Below are positions 46,429 through 58,917 of a stretch of 64,000 nucleotides of DNA, piece by piece. How positions within the stretch are numbered: the first letter of the stretch is position 1; each line of letters opens with the position of its first letter. The notes under the pieces are model-generated. The model was not told the DNA's origin and did not search any database. It saw nothing but the letters and a program-made list of their open reading frames with translations. The position numbers and the translations under genes were made by a program. This DNA comes from Candidatus Heimdallarchaeota archaeon (lineage in GTDB: Archaea > Asgardarchaeota > Heimdallarchaeia > Heimdallarchaeales > Heimdallarchaeaceae), in the NCBI GenBank assembly GCA_030603365.1, contig JAUVXV010000001.1, positions 288,001 to 352,000 on the forward strand, given 5' to 3'.

Positions 46429-47082
46429 TTAGTAATCAGATTTTTTCTTCTTACATTTACAAATCATTAATAGGGCAACAATAATGGAAGTAAGAGGAAG
46501 GACAATTGAAAGCGGTTTGTATTCAGGGATTATATAGTCAAATGGAATATAAGTGATGTTCATCACTCCCGAACTCATCTGAAGTATAGCTTCATAAGCA
46601 TCACCAAGAGTAGTATTATAAAATAGAGTTTCTATATAGATAGGTCTCCAGAAGGTATAATTACCATCAGGAAGATAAGGAAGGTCTGTTTGGTTGACGT
46701 AGAAAATCATAGGGTGAACTTCAACAGTGATACCAGGAGGGTAGGAACAAGTCTCTACAGAACCAGAACCAATCGATCTAACTGTTAGCTCTAAAGATTG
46801 ATTGACAAAAGACACATTGAGAAATACATAAGGTGATGTACTTGATTCAATAAGCGTTTGGTTTTGGTCATCTCTATTTAATATTTCCACAGTTGCGTTA
46901 AGACTGAATTGAGTAGTATTTGGTTTAAGGAGGTTAGGATATGAATTGATGGAAATATCACTGATCAATGATACTCTTGAACTAACGATAGTATATTCAC
47001 CTTCAACAGATGCAATATTAGACAGGATTAAAAGTTGTAATAATGCTAATGATATAGTGATTTTTTTCACTGAATGTTTCAC
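46429..47082 (-). CDS. Secreted, C-terminally anchored hypothetical protein (paralog 1)
   Basis: Signal peptide, LPYLPDGNYTFWRP, TM plus basic tail; ggagg RBS. Confidence 0.8.
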   Translation of the reverse strand: MKHSVKKITISLALLQLLILSNIASVEGEYTIVSSRVSLISDISINSYPNLLKPNTTQFSLNATVEILNRDDQNQTLIESSTSPYVFLNVSFVNQSLELTVRSIGSGSVETCSYPPGITVEVHPMIFYVNQTDLPYLPDGNYTFWRPIYIETLFYNTTLGDAYEAILQMSSGVMNITYIPFDYIIPEYKPLSIVLPLTSIIVALLMICKCKKKKSDY

Positions 47083-47157
47083 ATTATTCTACCTCCTTAA
47101 AGCAATCAATTTTCGATATGTGTTCATTTATACTTATGCATAATATATTATAAACAT

Positions 47158-47935
47158 TCATGCTAACCTTCCCTCTGTATATGCCTTACCGCATGCAAGA
47201 TATAAATCAACATACCCATAACCCATCTGGTCAAATGTACTTCTGGAACTAGCATATTGCAAGATATCAATAACTTTTTGAACAGTGGGATCAGTCGAAG
47301 AACCGATTCCATTATGATATCCTGTAATTATTAAAGCTATTATGCCTGCGAGATAAGGTGTGCTATAACTTGTTCCACAATGATATCTCCAGATACTTAT
47401 AGGTTGACCGTATCCGTCAAATCCCCATGTTAAAGCTGGTATCCCATTTCCAGGATCAAGCCAGTTAACAATGTGATTCCCCGTTTCATATGATTCATAC
47501 CAAGAAGAGAAAATTGATTTTCCATTTTTCGTAGACACTGGAGCTCCTACAGGTCGAGTTTCATGGTCTATTGAACCAATAGAATACCACTGAGAATAGT
47601 AACTAGGATACAGTCTATAATCACTACCATCGAAGTTTCGATAATTACCAACATTAAAATATCCATTTCCAGATGCACATATCATTATAACCCCCTTATT
47701 GATCAGGCTATCCCACTTGGTTGCAATATTAGGGGTAGAATATAATATGTCATCAACAAAATCTTGAGACCATGTAATGATATCTATGTCATATGTTGCT
47801 TGATTATCATCTAACCACGTCCATAAATCAAGATCACCTTCATAAAATTCGTAAGGGTCTTGTCCAAAGAAATCAACAAGTTGCATATCCACAAAGTTAT
47901 CAGAATTTCGTAGGATTTGAAACAGTTGAAGTAAT
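47158..47935 (-). pseudogene. 5'-truncated subtilisin-like (S8) serine protease
   Basis: ASGNG oxyanion and GTSYSTPYLAG Ser motifs, GYGYVD; catalytic Asp/His region absent, upstream frame closed. Confidence 0.8.
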
Positions 47936-48050
47936 TCAAATTAGGATTATAGTGAGTAATGTTATCTATGATTAATTCTTTCAAAGTTTCATTATTATTA
48001 ATTTTATAGAAAAAGAAAATGAGATTTTATTACAAGTTAATGAATAAAAA

Positions 48051-48695
48051 TCATCGTTTTCTCTTCTTAATATAGAGTATAAATATGATTATAGTTACCA
48101 TTGTAAGTGGAAAGGCAAGCGAAAGGGCAGTATACTCAGGGATTGTATAGTCAAATGGAATATAAGTGATATTCATTTCCCCTGAACTCATCCGAAGTAT
48201 AGCTTCATAAGCATCACCAGGAGTAGTATTATAAAATGGAGTTTCTATATTGATTGGTCTCCAGAAGGTATAATTACCATCAGGAAGATAAGGAAGGTCT
48301 GTTTGATTGACGTAGAAAATCATAGGGTGAACTTCAACAGTGATACCAGGAATGAAGGAACGAGACTCTACAGAACCAGAATCAAACGCATAAACTTCAA
48401 GTTCTAAGGATTGATTAACTAAAGACACATTGAGGAATACGTAAGGTATTGTATTTGGTTCAATAACTGTTCGATTTTGGTCATCTCTATTTAATACTTC
48501 TACAGTTGCGTTAAGACTGAATTGAGTAGTATTTGGTCTAATGATACTGGGAAATGAATTGATAGATATGTCACTGATCAAAGAAACTCTCGAACTAACA
48601 ATAGTATATTCACCTTCAACAGATGCAATGTTAGATAGGATTAATAGTTGGAATAATACCAATGTTATAGTAATCTTTTTCACTGAAAGTTTCAT
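48051..48695 (-). CDS. Secreted, C-terminally anchored hypothetical protein (paralog 2)
   Basis: Colinear and highly similar to 46429-47082. Confidence 0.8.
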   Translation of the reverse strand: MKLSVKKITITLVLFQLLILSNIASVEGEYTIVSSRVSLISDISINSFPSIIRPNTTQFSLNATVEVLNRDDQNRTVIEPNTIPYVFLNVSLVNQSLELEVYAFDSGSVESRSFIPGITVEVHPMIFYVNQTDLPYLPDGNYTFWRPINIETPFYNTTPGDAYEAILRMSSGEMNITYIPFDYTIPEYTALSLAFPLTMVTIIIFILYIKKRKR

Positions 48696-48770: not shown

Positions 48771-48832
48771 TCATGCTAATCCCCCCTCAGTATAAGTTCT
48801 ACCATATGCAATATAAATATCCACATAGCCAT
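48771..48832 (-). pseudogene. Last ~20 codons of a second S8 protease copy
   Basis: GYVDIYIAYGRTYTEGGLA* versus GYVDLYLACGKAYTEGRLA* at 47158. Confidence 0.8.
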
Positions 48833-49128
48833 GGGAAAATGAATTGAAGAAAGTAGATTTAGAACCATTAGGTAGATGTAAAAAATTGAAAGGGATATAT
48901 TTGATAAGAAATAAGATAGAAGAGATAGATCTAACACCATTAGGGAAGTGTAAGGAATTGAGGGAAGTGAGTTTATCATCAAATAGGATAAGGAAAATAG
49001 ATTTGAGACCATTAAAGAAATGTGAAAAATTGGAGAGTCTGACACTGTTTTGGAATCCAATAGAAGAGATGGAGAGAGAAAGTAGAGACATACTAAAGAA
49101 ATACTATGAAATAATAAAAAAAGAATGA
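48831..49128 (+). pseudogene. 5'-truncated LRR gene, paralog of 58359-58808
   Basis: Ungapped alignment to 58511-58808; begins abruptly at the S8 fragment junction. Confidence 0.85.
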
Positions 49129-49237
49129 AAAAGGGCAGAGAGCCCGACTCCACTCCAAGAATAATGGGCCGAAAGACCCAGAAGAAAGAGATTAAACAGA
49201 TTGTGAAACTTCAACAGGTTGTTCTACTAAAAACTCG
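48831..49237. repeat. 407-bp direct repeat, left copy (LRR 3' part + terminator hairpins + wHTH gene tail)
   Basis: Ungapped match to 58511-58917, offset 9680; about 51 mismatches by hand count (~87%). Confidence 0.95.
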
Positions 49238-50544: not shown

Positions 50545-50624
50545 GGATAAGATATTAATCTTTTCAGTTACTTGTTTTGGATGTCCTGAAAAATCTTTTA
50601 AGTTATCTTTCATATGTTAAAAAG

Positions 50625-51230
50625 ATGTCTTCAAAAGAAACTAAATTGAGCAAAGAAAAACGAAGAGAACTTCTCAGATTCAATCTGGAAAATATTAGAG
50701 AATATATTGCAATTGCTGATTCAAAAGCAAATATTACCTTATCTTTGTTAAGTTTTATAGTAGGAATAGGGTTGGGGGTTTCATTGATTGCTGATACATT
50801 TGAAAATGGAATATTGTTAACATATACGAATTATTGGTATTTATTCCTAATAATCCCCTTTTACATATTATTGATGGCGTATCTTATTTTATCCATCCTT
50901 GGAATAAATTCTGTAATTGGAGTTTATAGAGCCAGATTAGAATTAAAAGAAGAACAAGAAAAGGAGCAAGAATTAACTGGAGATATCTACTTCAAGCACA
51001 TATCAGATTATCAGTCATCTGATGAATATCATAAAGGAATCATGAACAAAACAGAAGAAAGTTATGAGAAAGATTTAGCAGAACAAGTATATTCTGTTTC
51101 AAATGTGTTAAGTAAAAAAATGGCAAAGGTAAATGAATCTATAAAATATCTAAAAATTTCCTTAATTTTGTTCATTCTTTTACTGCTTTTGAGTGCAGTG
51201 ATTGGAATTTTAATCCAAAATGGAGGATAA
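50625..51230 (+). CDS. pycTM: Pycsar-type transmembrane effector (PycTM/DUF5706-like)
   Basis: YIAIADSKANITL, two TMs, IYFKHIS, DLAEQVYSVSNVLSKKM, terminal TM; coupled to a cyclase. Confidence 0.8.
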   Translation: MSSKETKLSKEKRRELLRFNLENIREYIAIADSKANITLSLLSFIVGIGLGVSLIADTFENGILLTYTNYWYLFLIIPFYILLMAYLILSILGINSVIGVYRARLELKEEQEKEQELTGDIYFKHISDYQSSDEYHKGIMNKTEESYEKDLAEQVYSVSNVLSKKMAKVNESIKYLKISLILFILLLLLSAVIGILIQNGG

Positions 51231-51978
51231 TAAAATGGTCAGTAAATATGAATTAGAAAACCTCACTAGAAAGATAAAAACCTATATTGAGGAAGAATAT
51301 AGAATTAGAGAGTTTTCAGGAATACCAACAGTGAGTAATATTCCATATGGAATTAAAGGACAGAAAGGACAATTATGCGTATTTAGCATAGATCTTCGAC
51401 ATTCTACTAAGATGTTAAAGGAAATCGGAAAAGAAAAATCAGGAAGAATACATAAAGCATTCTTAACCATTGTAGCAAAAGTTGTCAAAAGCTATGGTGG
51501 AAAGATTCGAAGTTATACAGGAGATGGATTATTAGCTTTCTGGAAGGGAGATAGTTCTGATGAAGTTTCTAAATCTGTCAAAGCTGCAATGATTATACGA
51601 TGGTTATTTTCAATAAGTAATAATTCGAATCCTTCGCCAATAAAAAGCTTGATGGATAAAATATATGAAATAGATTTTGGGATAGGAATTGACTGTGGAG
51701 AGGTTTATGTATTTAGATCAGGTATACCTGATTCCCATCATGATTCTGATTTAATCTTTATGGGAGAGTGTGTTAATTTTGCAGTGTTTCTATCTCAAAA
51801 AGCTAAATCAAATAATTATATACAAATCTCTGAAAAAACATATTCCTTATTGAATGATGGATGGAAGTTTAGTACAAAGAATAATACGAAAGAAGATATG
51901 TGGACAGATGGTGAAGTAAAAGGAAAAGATAATATCACTAGAAATATCAAAAAGACTAATTGGTATTCACACATATAA
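51220..51978 (+). CDS. pycC: Class III nucleotide cyclase, Pycsar PycC-like (alternative start ATG 51235)
   Basis: SIDLRHST, GGKIRSYTGDGLL, FGIGIDCG, DLIFMGECVNFA. Confidence 0.82.
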   Translation: MEDNKMVSKYELENLTRKIKTYIEEEYRIREFSGIPTVSNIPYGIKGQKGQLCVFSIDLRHSTKMLKEIGKEKSGRIHKAFLTIVAKVVKSYGGKIRSYTGDGLLAFWKGDSSDEVSKSVKAAMIIRWLFSISNNSNPSPIKSLMDKIYEIDFGIGIDCGEVYVFRSGIPDSHHDSDLIFMGECVNFAVFLSQKAKSNNYIQISEKTYSLLNDGWKFSTKNNTKEDMWTDGEVKGKDNITRNIKKTNWYSHI

Positions 51979-52339
51979 TGAATTAGAAGAATTGGTCTAA
52001 TGCTGATTGCTTTTTGAGAAGTATTGGAGCCAGATTTCTCCTTAAATCTCATCTTTTGGTGAAAGACTGCAAATAAAAGGATAATTACTAGCTCCAATTT
52101 ACTTGCTTGTTAAACATATTTAAGTTTTGCACAATTTCCAAATCGAAAGTGAAATAGTTAATCTAAAAATATCTTCTCATTTTACTTTTTGGGTTTTTAT
52201 ATCGAAACCATATAATAGTAAATGCTACTAACAGTAGCAGAGAAATTGGTGAAAGACTGTTTGTTTAGAGGGAATTAATCTCAAAACATAATTGCTATCG
52301 TTGATGCAAGTTTTTTACCAGTTTATATCAGGTGATATC

Positions 52340-52462
52340 ATGAAAATAAAGAAAGTAGGTAAAATTGAGAACGGAAACAAACTAGATAAGATTTCAATAG
52401 TTCCATGTTGCGGAATGGCTGACTATGAACTAGCAATATGTGCATATCCACGTTTAAACTAG
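52340..52462 (+). CDS. Putative RiPP precursor peptide, 40 aa: MKIKKVGKIENGNKLDKISIVPCCGMADYELAICAYPRLN
   Basis: ggtgat RBS before ATG, Lys-rich leader plus 3-Cys core, T-tract after the stop, 32 bp before the rSAM/SPASM start; below the ORF-track cutoff. Confidence 0.75.
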   Translation: MKIKKVGKIENGNKLDKISIVPCCGMADYELAICAYPRLN

Positions 52463-52494
52463 TTCTCTTTTCTCTTTTTTTTGAGGTTTTAGAG

Positions 52495-53916
52495 ATGAAA
52501 AAAGAAAATAAAAGAAACAAATTGAATAAGTATGTGTATGAAGTCCAGCTATTAGATGAAGAGTGGTTTATATTTAATTTGCTAAATTTCAACTATGTAA
52601 TCTCAGATAAAAGTCTTAAACAAACTGAAATCGCGGAACTTGATTCTGATACAAGGGAGGTTTTGTATGACCTTGGTTTTATATCGGATATTGATGAACA
52701 AACCCTTTGTCAATCAAGAATAAAGGAATGGAAGAATAAAATTAAAAGTGATTACAATCCTTCATTCGAGACATTGGTTTTTAAGATTATGCCTACTCTT
52801 TTGTGTAACTTCAGATGTTCATACTGTTATCAACCAGAACTATATCTTGAGGAAACAAGAAGAAAAACAGAATATATGAGGACAGAGGTACTAGATGCAT
52901 TTTTCGAATATATTGAGAACAATATTATTCAAAAAGAAAAAAGGAAAATTAGATTAGAAATTGTGGGAGGAGAAGTTTTCTTAAAAAATAGAAATGCAAT
53001 CAGATTTGTTGAACATCTTATTGAAAAGACAATCAACTACAATATGGAGCTAATTTTTGTTACAAATGGCTAACATCTTGACCACTTTCTGGAAATTTTA
53101 AAACGAAAAGAAAACATAATGTATAATATTACAATTGATGGAGAGAAAAAAAAACATGACTCTAGAAGATTTTTAGCTGGAGGAAAAGGGAGTTTTGACA
53201 AAATTATTCAAAATATAGACAAAATTCTATCAGAGACAAATCATAAGGTTCGAATAAGATGTAATATTGATGATGATAATATAGAATCAATTCCTTCTCT
53301 TCTGCTATTTTTACAAAACAAAGGATGGTTATCACTTGAGAGAATAGAGATGATTTTTAGAGCAACAACAGAATATTCAACAAATAACGATTACGATTTT
53401 CCTATTGCAAGGAACATTATTTCACCAGAAAATATCGTTAGATTTATAGAAATTCTACGAAAACAAGGAATGAGAGAAGCAAATATTGACGGTACATTAA
53501 TTCCTCCTGTTTTAATAGGATTATTTTGGTCTCGATTATTTGAAGAAGAGATGATAGATGAGAACCGAAGAACTAAAACAATAGATATTCTTTGTAGTGC
53601 AACTCAAGGTTTTTTTGGTTCATTAGAGCTTGATGGAACAATTCGCTCATGTGGATTTGAATTAGCTCAATCTCAAGGAAAAATATTTCCAAGAGAGGAA
53701 GTTATATATGAAAATGTCAAATATTGGAATTCTGTTGAGTTTATTCTTGAGAAATTCCTACACCAACCTTGTCTTGAGTGCAAATTCTTCTTTGTTTGTA
53801 ATAAAAGGCAATGTCCTTACAATCAACTTGATCAATATGATGAGAAGTTAGGATACTGCATTGATGTTGAACAAAGTCTAGATACATTCTTCAGATACTT
53901 TGGAAAATTCCTATGA
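52495..53916 (+). pseudogene. Radical SAM/SPASM peptide maturase with RRE-like N-terminus; single in-frame TAA at 53071-53073
   Basis: CNFRCSYC, GGEV, VTNG*, ITIDG, HDSRR, SPASM Cys (CSAT...RSC...CLEC...VCNKRQCP...YC); both track ORFs are in one frame. Confidence 0.85.
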
Positions 53917-54575: not shown

Positions 54576-54919
54576 CTCTGAATTCAGCTTTATCCTAACC
54601 CTCTTTTAAACAAATATTTAATATTCCTTTAAGTCAATAGATTTGAAGTATTTTGATTGTTTTTCTAACTCTTTGCACAAAAAATAAGTTATGTTTATAT
54701 ACCAAAAACATGTCTACAAAGTGAACGTTCCGTTGTTAGACTGAGTAAATGAAACTTTGCTAAACAAAAGGTGAAAGACTGCAAATAAAAGGATGACAAC
54801 TAGTACTCCAATTAGAATGAATTGCAAAACTAACAGAAATTAATCTGTATGACAAAAACTTTCGAAGACACACAGAAAATCAACAAGGAACGTTACAAAA
54901 CTAAAAAAAGGTAAAAATA

Positions 54920-56999: not shown

Positions 57000-58301
57000 A
57001 TGGACATGCTTGGAATGAATATGATAAACAAATCTGAAATGAACAAAACACTTCTCTTCTACAGTATAGGCATTGTTATGTGCAAGAATCTGGTAAAAAC
57101 ATCATTTGCTGAAGATATATTAACGAAATTTTGGATTTGGGTGAATGCCAAGATAATAAGAAGAGTAATGGAAGAGAAGATGAACGAACTTCCACTATTA
57201 AGAAAACTTTACCAAGAGAAAATGATAAAATTCATACAGCAAAGTGATAAACTGTTACTTATATACGCACCCTATTCTTCCTCTAGTTCTATAAGTTATA
57301 TTAAAGCATTTAATGATGATAATTCAATCTCGTTCTTAGATTTATTCAGAACAACCGATGGTAGAGTACTTGATCTAAATGTGCTTCTAGCAAATCACTA
57401 TGTTAAGATACTAACAGATCCTAATCACAAAATAACGAAAGAATTAAGTAGACTTGAACTAGAAGATGGAGGGACAAATGTCGCACAATTGGCTTTATCA
57501 GCAATAAATTTTTTGAAAGAAAAAACGGGGTATACTTCGCTTTACAAGAAAGAAATGTCAATTGAAGGAATAATCAAAGATATGGGTTTAGATCTGAATA
57601 TTAACGAAGCAGTTGAACAAGGATTAATCAAACGAGATTCAGCAATAGCGCAATATAAGACACTCCATTTATCTTCTGAAGGTGATTTATATAAAGTAAC
57701 TGAAGCAATCAAGAATATCTTCTATTTAGACAGTATCTATAAAGGACTATATACAATTGGAGAAATTGCAAAGGATATGATGAAAAGTGGTTCTAATGGT
57801 GGGTTAAGAGAATCAGATTTGATTGAATTATTTAAAAAAGAAATAAATGGACGAATGACATATGCAATGGGAACTTCAACAATAACTGCTTTTGAGATTA
57901 AGGCACCTGCAATAAAAGTGCTAAGCACAACTACACATTATGATGTGGATATAAAAGAAAAAGATCTAAAGAGTCAACAATTAGCGTTACTTACTAGAGA
58001 TGCGGTCGAACAATATCTGGATACAAAAATACTGATGCCAACATGTTACATAGGAGAGGGGAACATAATAGTAGAGAACATAATGGAATCAATAGTAGCA
58101 TTGCAACTAAAGGAAGCAGCAGTAAGTTGGAAGAGAATAAATGATTTCGAGCAAATAGCACAACTAGTAGGAACAGAAAAGGCATATGAACTAGTGTTTG
58201 GAAAGGGATATAATTATAATCCAACAAAACTGAATAAGAAAAACTGGTTCATGAGGTGGATACATCTGATGGCAGGATATAGTTTCGTAGATCCAAAATA
58301 A
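57000..58301 (+). CDS. Hypothetical protein (possibly a C-terminal remnant of a larger element gene)
   Basis: 433-aa open frame with no recognised motif; start uncertain. Confidence 0.6.
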   Translation: MDMLGMNMINKSEMNKTLLFYSIGIVMCKNLVKTSFAEDILTKFWIWVNAKIIRRVMEEKMNELPLLRKLYQEKMIKFIQQSDKLLLIYAPYSSSSSISYIKAFNDDNSISFLDLFRTTDGRVLDLNVLLANHYVKILTDPNHKITKELSRLELEDGGTNVAQLALSAINFLKEKTGYTSLYKKEMSIEGIIKDMGLDLNINEAVEQGLIKRDSAIAQYKTLHLSSEGDLYKVTEAIKNIFYLDSIYKGLYTIGEIAKDMMKSGSNGGLRESDLIELFKKEINGRMTYAMGTSTITAFEIKAPAIKVLSTTTHYDVDIKEKDLKSQQLALLTRDAVEQYLDTKILMPTCYIGEGNIIVENIMESIVALQLKEAAVSWKRINDFEQIAQLVGTEKAYELVFGKGYNYNPTKLNKKNWFMRWIHLMAGYSFVDPK

Positions 58302-58358: not shown

Positions 58359-58808
58359 GTGAGAAAAGTAAGAGGGAAAAGAAGTACAGGAGAAGAATAC
58401 ATACAAGAAATTAAAGATACAACAACGCTTGTGAACATGAGTAAATTAGGATTAGTGGAAGTAGATTTAAGAGAACTTGAGGGATTGAAAGAATTATTAT
58501 ATGTTTATCTATGGGAAAATGAATTGGAGGAAGTAGATTTAGAACCATTAAGAAAATGCAAGAAATTGAAAGGGATATATTTACATGGAAATAAAATAAG
58601 AGAGATAGATTTAACTCCGCTGGAGGAGTGTAAAGAGCTGAGGGAAATTGGACTGTCATCAAATAAAATAAGAAAAATAGATTTGAGACCATTAAAGAAA
58701 TGTGAGAAATTGGAGAGCTTGACGCTGTTTTGGAATCCAATAGAAGAGCTGGAGAGAGAAAGTAGGGATATAATGAAAAAATACTACGAAATAATAAAAA
58801 AAGAATGA
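58359..58808 (+). CDS. Small leucine-rich repeat protein of the element
   Basis: VDLxPLxxCxxLxxIxLxxNxI repeats; GTG start. Confidence 0.88.
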   Translation: MRKVRGKRSTGEEYIQEIKDTTTLVNMSKLGLVEVDLRELEGLKELLYVYLWENELEEVDLEPLRKCKKLKGIYLHGNKIREIDLTPLEECKELREIGLSSNKIRKIDLRPLKKCEKLESLTLFWNPIEELERESRDIMKKYYEIIKKE

Positions 58809-58917
58809 AAAAGGGCACAGAGCCCGGCTCCACTCCAAGAATAATGGGCCGAAGGACCCAGAAGAAAGAAATTAAACAGATTGTGAAACTTCAACAGGTT
58901 GCTCTACTAAGAACTCG
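58511..58917. repeat. 407-bp direct repeat, right copy
   Basis: Matches 48831-49237. Confidence 0.95.
58808..58860 (-). terminator. Two GC hairpins plus T-run between the convergent wHTH and LRR genes
   Basis: gggc-acaga-gccc and gggcc-gaag-gaccc; conserved at 49128-49180. Confidence 0.55.

What the first reader, a model, noticed from the sequence alone, without database searches (positions are those of the whole stretch)
52340..53916. Hidden RiPP locus in an Asgard archaeon: 40-aa Cys-containing precursor next to a radical SAM/SPASM maturase
Seen: an ORF missing from the track (52340-52462) with the local ggtgat RBS encodes MKIKKVGKIENGNKLDKISIVP-CCGMADYELAICAYPRLN, a Lys-rich leader-like half and a core with a CC-x9-C pattern plus Asp/Glu/Tyr. 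A T-tract follows, then after 32 bp a CxxxCxxC enzyme with SPASM cysteines and an N-terminal ~70 aa (WFIFNLLNFNYV...LYDLGFI) resembling an RRE. Established: short peptide + RRE-rSAM-SPASM is the architecture of sactipeptide/ranthipeptide and cyclophane RiPPs. Inference: an uncharacterised thioether- or C-C-crosslinked peptide family carried by an Asgard mobile island. I do not recognise the core. No exporter or intact protease is adjacent.
Basis: partly seen in the sequence, partly recalled or inferred. Interest (0 to 1): 0.85.

Follow-up and report, generated by a model that had tools for sequence, protein, structure and literature searches.

The report
Asgard three-cysteine peptide and radical-SAM maturase
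A tiny gene for a three-cysteine peptide always sits in front of a peptide-modifying iron-sulfur enzyme in a rare, undescribed gene cassette of Heimdall-group Asgard archaea, which probably makes sulfur-bridged peptides; in this genome the enzyme gene is broken by a stop codon.

Summary
The 40-codon ORF (52340-52462) is a real gene under purifying selection (dN/dS about 0.2-0.3). A Lys-rich leader plus CC-x8/9-C peptide precedes the maturase in all 8 Heimdallarchaeia-type loci where the DNA can be read. The enzyme has an RRE-like N-terminus, CxxxCxxC and a seven-Cys SPASM domain laid out like the thioether synthases CteB, PapB and CrpC. It forms its own long-stemmed clade and scores far below every NCBIfam cutoff. 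Only the three cysteines of the core are invariant, so thioether crosslinking is the best reading (about 0.7); cyclophane chemistry is unlikely; regiochemistry cannot be called. The cassette is rare, carries an ArsR-like HTH in 4 loci and abuts a Pycsar pair in 3; no exporter or protease is conserved. No paper describing it was found. The scan had not seen this family on other DNA, though it noted other Asgard radical-SAM peptide systems and a bacterial CC-x9-C family.

The parts
52330..52336 (+). Shine-Dalgarno-like AGGTGAT before the peptide
   Evidence: sequence; same motif and spacing in L003 and L004
52340..52462 (+). Precursor peptide gene, 40 aa: basic 22-residue leader, core with C23, C24, C34
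   Evidence: (dN/dS 0.2-0.3)
52463..52482 (+). Pyrimidine/oligo-T tract between peptide and maturase; probable leaky archaeal terminator (inferred)
   Evidence: similar tracts in L003, L004, L005, L007, L008; absent in L006 and L170
52495..53916 (+). RRE-radical SAM-SPASM maturase gene, 473 codons, interrupted by one nonsense codon
52495..52764 (+). N-terminal RRE-like domain (three-strand sheet, short helices, long linker helix); invariant W-x3-NLLNF motif
   Evidence: model of the orthologue domain, pLDDT 88.7; structural matches; alignment
52804..52827 (+). CxxxCxxC radical SAM cluster motif (C104, C108, C111)
53071..53073 (+). In-frame TAA at codon 193, inside the invariant TNGY motif; TAT in five intact orthologues
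53593..53859 (+). SPASM domain cysteines: inferred AuxI C367, C386, C440 and AuxII C426, C429, C435, C455
   Evidence: invariant in 8 family members; assignment by analogy with CteB, PapB (PMC10177961) and CrpC (PMC13692751)
53976..54575 (+). ArsR-like winged-helix regulator without cysteines; likely part of the cassette
   Evidence: adjacent in window, L004, L170 and L187; also occurs without the cassette
50577..51978 (+). Pycsar-like pair, PycTM then PycC; neighbour in 3 loci, not obligatory
   Evidence: PADLOC PycTM 1e-25, PycC 2e-48; also beside the cassette in L006 and L170
52058..52091 (+). 34-nt element repeated at 54770-54803, with a shorter copy at 52249; brackets peptide, maturase and HTH
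   Evidence: two copies also upstream of the peptide in L003
49151..49237 (.). Left direct repeat of the 9.6-kb island (83 of 87 nt match 58831-58917, the 3' end of a wHTH gene)
   Evidence: lead from e1-5503713

Best explanation
This is a decayed copy of a small, rare RiPP cassette of Heimdallarchaeia: precursor peptide, RRE-radical SAM-SPASM maturase and often an HTH regulator. In intact copies the RRE holds the Lys-rich leader (inferred), the CxxxCxxC cluster cleaves SAM (established for the family), the 5'-deoxyadenosyl radical takes a hydrogen from a core residue, and a substrate cysteine bound at the three-Cys AuxI cluster is joined to that carbon as a thioether, with AuxII passing on the electron (inferred from CteB, PapB, Tte1186, CrpC). 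Up to three links are possible. Because only the cysteines and their spacing are kept, the acceptors are set by position rather than by side chain; alpha-carbon versus beta/gamma-carbon links cannot be told. The T tract probably gives excess peptide transcript. With no conserved exporter or protease the product most likely stays in the cell or uses functions in trans; its variable core, island location and frequent loss point to an accessory conflict or signalling role (about 0.4 for that role). In this genome the TAA at codon 193 most likely leaves the peptide unmodified. Shown: gene pair, conservation, selection, domain layout, the break. Inferred: binding, chemistry, role.
For: Peptide ahead of the maturase in 8 of 8 readable loci, 26-64 nt apart, plus a leaderless remnant before an RRE-only remnant. 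Purifying selection on the peptide: dN 0.17-0.26 against dS 0.56-1.35 among the three closest copies. Three invariant Cys in an otherwise variable core. RRE-like fold. Seven invariant SPASM Cys, spacing x18-x39-x2-x5-x4-x14, matching CrpC (333, 352, 390, 393, 399, 403, 422) and CteB/PapB, where substrate Cys binds AuxI (PMC10177961). Best HMM is TIGR04463, the family of the ranthionine-forming CrpC, followed by other Cys-peptide maturases. Monophyly with SH-aLRT 100 and a short terminal branch for the window copy, so the break is recent.
Against: No chemistry is shown. All HMM scores are far below cutoffs (123 bits against 525), so function does not transfer safely. Seven SPASM cysteines also occur in the C-C-forming TigE, where a Tyr fills the fourth AuxI site (PMC10878394), and 4 of 8 members have an extra Cys at 394. 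No acceptor motif such as CX3D is conserved. Structural Z-scores for the RRE are below 6. The window copy is broken.
Confidence: 0.7

Rival explanations
1. The pair is substrate and enzyme, but the chemistry is not a thioether: Cys-directed oxidation of the anSME type, a C-C link, or tailoring that leaves the three thiols free as a metal or metalloid binding site.
For: anSME is the top sequence and fold match in the PDB. TigE is the top match of the N-terminal domain and has seven SPASM Cys. A bacterial family with the same CC-x9-C spacing lies between an ArsM-like methyltransferase and a thioredoxin/reductase fusion. The SPASM motif here is unusual (C-x4-C with an invariant RQC).
Against: anSME lacks an RRE and is a common hit for SPASM proteins (own knowledge). 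No aromatic or aliphatic acceptor is invariant. No ArsM, thioredoxin or metal transporter is conserved near the Asgard loci and the HTH has no Cys. Kinship with the bacterial family is neither shown nor rejected (p-AU 0.46).
Confidence: 0.2
2. The window copy is really intact and the TAA is an assembly error, or the two halves work as a split enzyme.
For: One base differs from TAT; all cluster ligands are kept; both halves show the same purifying selection against L003; short terminal branch.
Against: At most 28 such candidate splits among 2,833 long ORFs in the genome, so neither frequent base errors nor TAA recoding. Neighbouring genes are truncated by deletions. Half of the family's loci are broken, one with identical frameshifts in two assemblies. 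The break removes part of the barrel and the next ATG (53119) has no RBS-like motif.
Confidence: 0.12
3. The peptide is not the substrate (a regulatory leader peptide or bystander) and the enzyme acts on a protein elsewhere.
For: The T tract after the peptide resembles an attenuator; CrpC shows that relatives can modify whole proteins (PMC13692751).
Against: No other gene is present in all loci; leader and three Cys are conserved across maturases only 34-56% identical; peptide and maturase decay together.
Confidence: 0.06

Closest known systems
CrpC/CrpA of Methanococcus voltae (TIGR04463; PMC13692751)
   Same: Archaeal; N-terminal RRE of about 92 residues; radical SAM motif at C104/108/111; seven SPASM Cys with x18 between the first two; best HMM hit.
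   Different: 123 bits against a cutoff of 525; CrpA is a 29-kDa repeat protein with C-x-x-Q/D motifs, here a 35-41 aa peptide with CC-x8/9-C and no fixed acceptor.
Ranthipeptide maturases CteB/Tte1186 (SCIFF) and PapB (freyrasin)
   Same: RRE-rSAM-SPASM layout, three-Cys AuxI and four-Cys AuxII pattern, short Cys precursor directly upstream.
   Different: Far below cutoffs (PapB 78 of 340, SCIFF 50 of 425 bits); no six-Cys or CX3D pattern; C-x2-C-x5-C-x4-C-x14-C in place of x3 and x18.
Uncharacterised Cys-peptide maturase families CefB (NF038107), Clo7bot (TIGR04334), geopeptide (TIGR04280)
   Same: Same broad clade by HMM; short Cys-containing precursors upstream.
   Different: Scores 86-104 bits against cutoffs of 400-600; none of their peptide models hits any of the nine peptides.
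Bacterial CC-x9-C 'GCHD' peptide with rSAM, ArsM-like methyltransferase and Trx-TrxR (unpublished; earlier scan notes; L176)
   Same: Lys-rich leader of about 20 residues and the same three-Cys spacing before an RRE-rSAM-SPASM gene.
   Different: Core nearly invariant there, highly variable here; maturases about 25% identical and in separate clades; no ArsM or thioredoxin genes at the Asgard loci.

Membership tests
RRE-rSAM-SPASM RiPP maturase system | CxxxCxxC radical SAM core | tested here: met
   C104, C108, C111; PF04055 E 6e-16
RRE-rSAM-SPASM RiPP maturase system | SPASM domain with seven or eight cluster cysteines | tested here: met
   seven invariant Cys; fold matches to anSME, SuiB, CteB, TigE. 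The Pfam SPASM model itself does not hit
RRE-rSAM-SPASM RiPP maturase system | N-terminal RRE fold | tested here: met
   11 of the 12 best VIA rows are RRE-bearing RiPP proteins (best Z 5.7, rmsd 4.3, 86 aligned; TbiB1 Z 4.7, rmsd 3.0, 58 aligned); scores are low, support comes from the ranking
RRE-rSAM-SPASM RiPP maturase system | Conserved short precursor with leader and core next to the enzyme | tested here: met
   8 of 8 readable loci; purifying selection
RRE-rSAM-SPASM RiPP maturase system | Intact enzyme gene in this genome | tested here: not met
   TAA at codon 193; intact in seven orthologous loci
Sactipeptide or ranthipeptide | Cys-to-carbon thioether formed by the enzyme, and its regiochemistry | not testable with these tools
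   needs MS, alkylation, desulfurization, NMR
PapB/freyrasin-type ranthipeptide | Conserved CX3D/E motifs; NF047865 above cutoff | tested here: not met
   D/E at C24+4 in only 3 of 8 peptides; 78 of 340 bits
TIGR04463 (CrpC family) | HMM score above 525; large Cys-rich repeat protein as neighbour | tested here: not met
   103-123 bits; no such neighbour
SCIFF, CefA/B, Clo7bot, geopeptide | Maturase above cutoff and precursor matching the family model | tested here: not met
Cyclophane (triceptide) RiPPs | Conserved aromatic-x-x motif in the core | tested here: not met
   no aromatic position is invariant; YhhB, FxsB, DynA models score 53-64 bits
Exported bacteriocin-type cluster | Dedicated exporter, leader peptidase, immunity gene | tested here: inconclusive
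   none conserved in the loci read; S8 or S9 peptidases lie nearby in some; several contigs are short

The most novel reading that the evidence does not exclude
The cassette is a working partner of the neighbouring Pycsar-like pair, or otherwise an antiviral module: a crosslinked peptide, diversified in its core, that acts in Asgard defence islands together with a cyclic-nucleotide signal. That would tie RiPP chemistry to antiviral defence in the archaea closest to eukaryotes. For: PycC/PycTM abuts the cassette in 3 loci although PycC was found in only 5 of 83 class genomes. Against: the order differs, four Pycsar genomes lack the maturase, and L005 and L007 show no Pycsar beside it.
Probability: 0.1. 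Interest if true: 0.85.

Novelty: new variant of a known kind. Interest (0 to 1): 0.52.

Why it matters
No radical-SAM RiPP of Asgard archaea turned up in the literature searched. This gives a compact, testable two-gene system with six intact natural pairs whose cores differ everywhere except at three cysteines. Such an enzyme may accept many core sequences, which is of use for peptide macrocyclization, and the vicinal CC with a distal Cys is a ring pattern not in the characterised sacti- or ranthipeptides I know. The cassette also shows fast gain and decay of secondary-metabolism genes in Heimdallarchaeia islands. The limits: the logic is a known one, the family is tiny, the chemistry and role are untested, and this copy is broken.

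Tried and rejected
Co-fold of the RRE domain with the peptide (L003 pair, alignments A4 and A3): no verdict; score 0.36 with one control at 0.21; not used as evidence either way. Peptides match nothing in Pfam or NCBIfam; ESM Atlas gave only unnamed clusters under 0.9. The bacterial peptides were found only because L176 was in my query, so they are not independent; an Asgard-only profile scores them little above shuffles. Sister relation to that bacterial clade: not shown, not rejected. The repeated GTGAAAGACTG element has no Rfam match, no consistent fold (z -2.1 to 0) and no copy in 82 other class genomes. TAA recoding rejected. The only tyrosine recombinase found lies on another contig. Viperin and Csa3 hits in PADLOC are generic domain matches. 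Paper searches for the HMM family names and core sequences found nothing relevant. DNA for the P0028 contig was not available, so its peptide is untested.

Full report
Observation. The window is part of a 701-kb contig of a 3.65-Mb genome. A window small GTPase falls in a 90% cluster with proteins named Candidatus Heimdallarchaeaceae, so the host is a Heimdall-group Asgard archaeon. The ORF at 52340-52462 encodes the 40 residues quoted, with AGGTGA 4 nt upstream, a T-rich tract at 52463-52482 and the maturase start 32 nt after the stop. The maturase frame 52495-53916 is open except for one TAA at codon 193. Read through, it gives 473 aa with a radical SAM domain.

The maturase family. Searches of 5.8 billion and 1.84 billion proteins found a small, sharply bounded family: seven other full-length members at about 35-56% identity (P0004-P0007, P0027, P0028, P0174) and several fragments, then a drop to E about 1e-30 or weaker. 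Those with names are Heimdallarchaeota or Heimdallarchaeaceae; for unnamed contigs the host is inferred from neighbours, such as a ubiquitin-conjugating-like ORF in L005 (my reading) and the shared HTH in L004. The eight form one clade (SH-aLRT 100, stem about 1.4 changes per site; quick trees). No other of 399 species genomes of the phylum has a full-length copy with these queries; three have remnants. NCBIfam ranks TIGR04463, CefB, Clo7bot, geopeptide and PapB maturases first, all far below cutoff.

The peptide is a gene and belongs to the enzyme. Every locus where the DNA before an intact 5' end of the maturase could be read has a 35-41 aa ORF just upstream: window, L003, L004, L005, L006, L007, L008/L009 and L170-L175. 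All have a basic leader of 17-22 residues (net +3 to +8) and exactly three Cys as CC-x9-C (x8 in L005). Only the start Met and the cysteines are kept; the third Cys is preceded by hydrophobic residues and followed by a Pro within four residues. Between window, L003 and L008, dN is 0.17-0.26 and dS 0.56-1.35, with most changes at third codon positions. The pattern is rare by chance: 2 of 12,115 short ORFs in this genome.

Domain anatomy. The first 92 residues of P0004 fold confidently (pLDDT 88.7) as three strands, short helices and a long linker helix. Against 48,161 solved chains, 11 of the best 12 matches are RRE-bearing RiPP proteins (TigE, TbiB1, MibB, PbtF, McbB, lasso B1, MccB, PqqD, ThcOx, TbtB, MadB), with Z 3.3-5.7; Foldseek's first four rows are TbiB1 at non-significant E. 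The full model matches anSME, SuiB, CteB, TigE, ChlB and SkfB. Seven C-terminal Cys are invariant with spacing x18, x39, x2, x5, x4, x14. In CteB, PapB and Tte1186 the same pattern gives a three-Cys AuxI cluster that binds the substrate Cys and a four-Cys AuxII (PMC10177961). CrpC of Methanococcus voltae, the characterised member of TIGR04463, has the same layout and makes ranthionine links (PMC13692751). The pattern is not proof: TigE also has seven Cys and fills the site with Tyr (PMC10878394).

Mechanism. Most likely (0.7) the enzyme binds the leader through its RRE and links core cysteines to carbons of nearby residues as thioethers. Since the cysteines are the only fixed residues of the core, they are the probable reacting groups, and acceptors seem set by position. 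Alpha versus beta/gamma linkage is open: variable acceptors fit sactionine, the nearest characterised relatives are ranthisynthases. Cyclophane chemistry is unlikely. The T tract, present in six of eight loci, probably raises the peptide-to-enzyme transcript ratio (inference from archaeal oligo-T terminators, own knowledge). No exporter, leader peptidase or immunity gene is common to the loci.

This copy is broken, like half the family. Codon 193 is TAT in five intact orthologues and lies in the invariant TNGY motif. Both halves still show purifying selection and the terminal branch is short, so the change is recent or an error. An error is less likely: at most 28 such splits exist among 2,833 long ORFs, neighbours are truncated by deletion (S8 peptidase), and decay is common in the family: L008/L009 (frameshifts, identical in two assemblies), L185 (frameshift), L184 (5' part lost), L177 (C-terminal remnant), L187 (HTH plus a peptide cut before the third Cys, maturase gone) and L195 (leaderless CC-x8-C core before an RRE-only stub). 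That is 7 broken or remnant loci of 14; short metagenome contigs may inflate the count.

Context. An ArsR-like HTH adjoins the pair in four loci, before or after it, but also occurs alone (10 of 83 class genomes). A Pycsar-like PycTM-PycC pair abuts it in the window, L006 and L170, while PycC is in only 5 of 83 class genomes and the four others lack the maturase. L170 shares further cargo with the window in shuffled order (NosD-like, S8 peptidase and others), so a common island gene pool explains the link without a functional tie; a tie is not excluded. A 34-nt element brackets peptide, maturase and HTH and recurs in L003; its role is unknown.

Comparison and verdict. It works like a sacti/ranthipeptide system but is not a member of any named family: all cutoffs fail and no precursor model matches. 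A bacterial family with the same CC-x9-C spacing, an invariant core and ArsM-like and thioredoxin neighbours exists (L176; earlier notes); a shared origin is neither shown nor rejected (p-AU 0.46). Literature searches found no description, and the scan has no note on this family in other genomes. Verdict: a real, undescribed Heimdallarchaeia RiPP family of a known kind, here as a probable recent pseudogene; interest 0.52.

Noticed in passing
window 50577-51978: Intact Pycsar-like pair with the membrane effector first; same order in L170 and four class genomes.
   Followed up: partly
window 52019-52100, 52249, 54770-54803; L003 4023 and 4201: GTGAAAGACTG occurs only three times in the genome, all around this cassette, and twice at matching places in L003; possible operator or recombination site.
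   Followed up: partly
window 48826-49237 and 58506-58917: Duplicated LRR gene end plus the 3' end of a wHTH gene flanks the island.
   Followed up: partly
window 46429-48695: Two paralogous 214-217 aa membrane-anchored genes around a truncated S8 peptidase; the S8 plus this gene recur together in L170, L195 and elsewhere on contig C1.
   Followed up: no
L176 145-2740: Bacterial ArsM-like methyltransferase, 32-aa CC-x9-C peptide, rSAM/SPASM and thioredoxin-reductase fusion; at least 13 close peptide relatives in the protein collection.
   Followed up: partly
L008 860-960: One frameshift in the broken maturase comes from a tandem duplication of about 28 nt, the same in two assemblies.
   Followed up: partly
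L003 1577-3795: In that Heimdallarchaeote the cassette follows a RuBisCO and ribose-1,5-bisphosphate isomerase pair, an unrelated insertion site.
   Followed up: no
G000 C1:624385-624975: A paralogue of the cassette's HTH also has a TAA inside the matched stretch.
   Followed up: no
window 57000-58301: 433-aa island gene of no clear family (weak DUF3103 hit) with one distant paralogue on C1.
   Followed up: no
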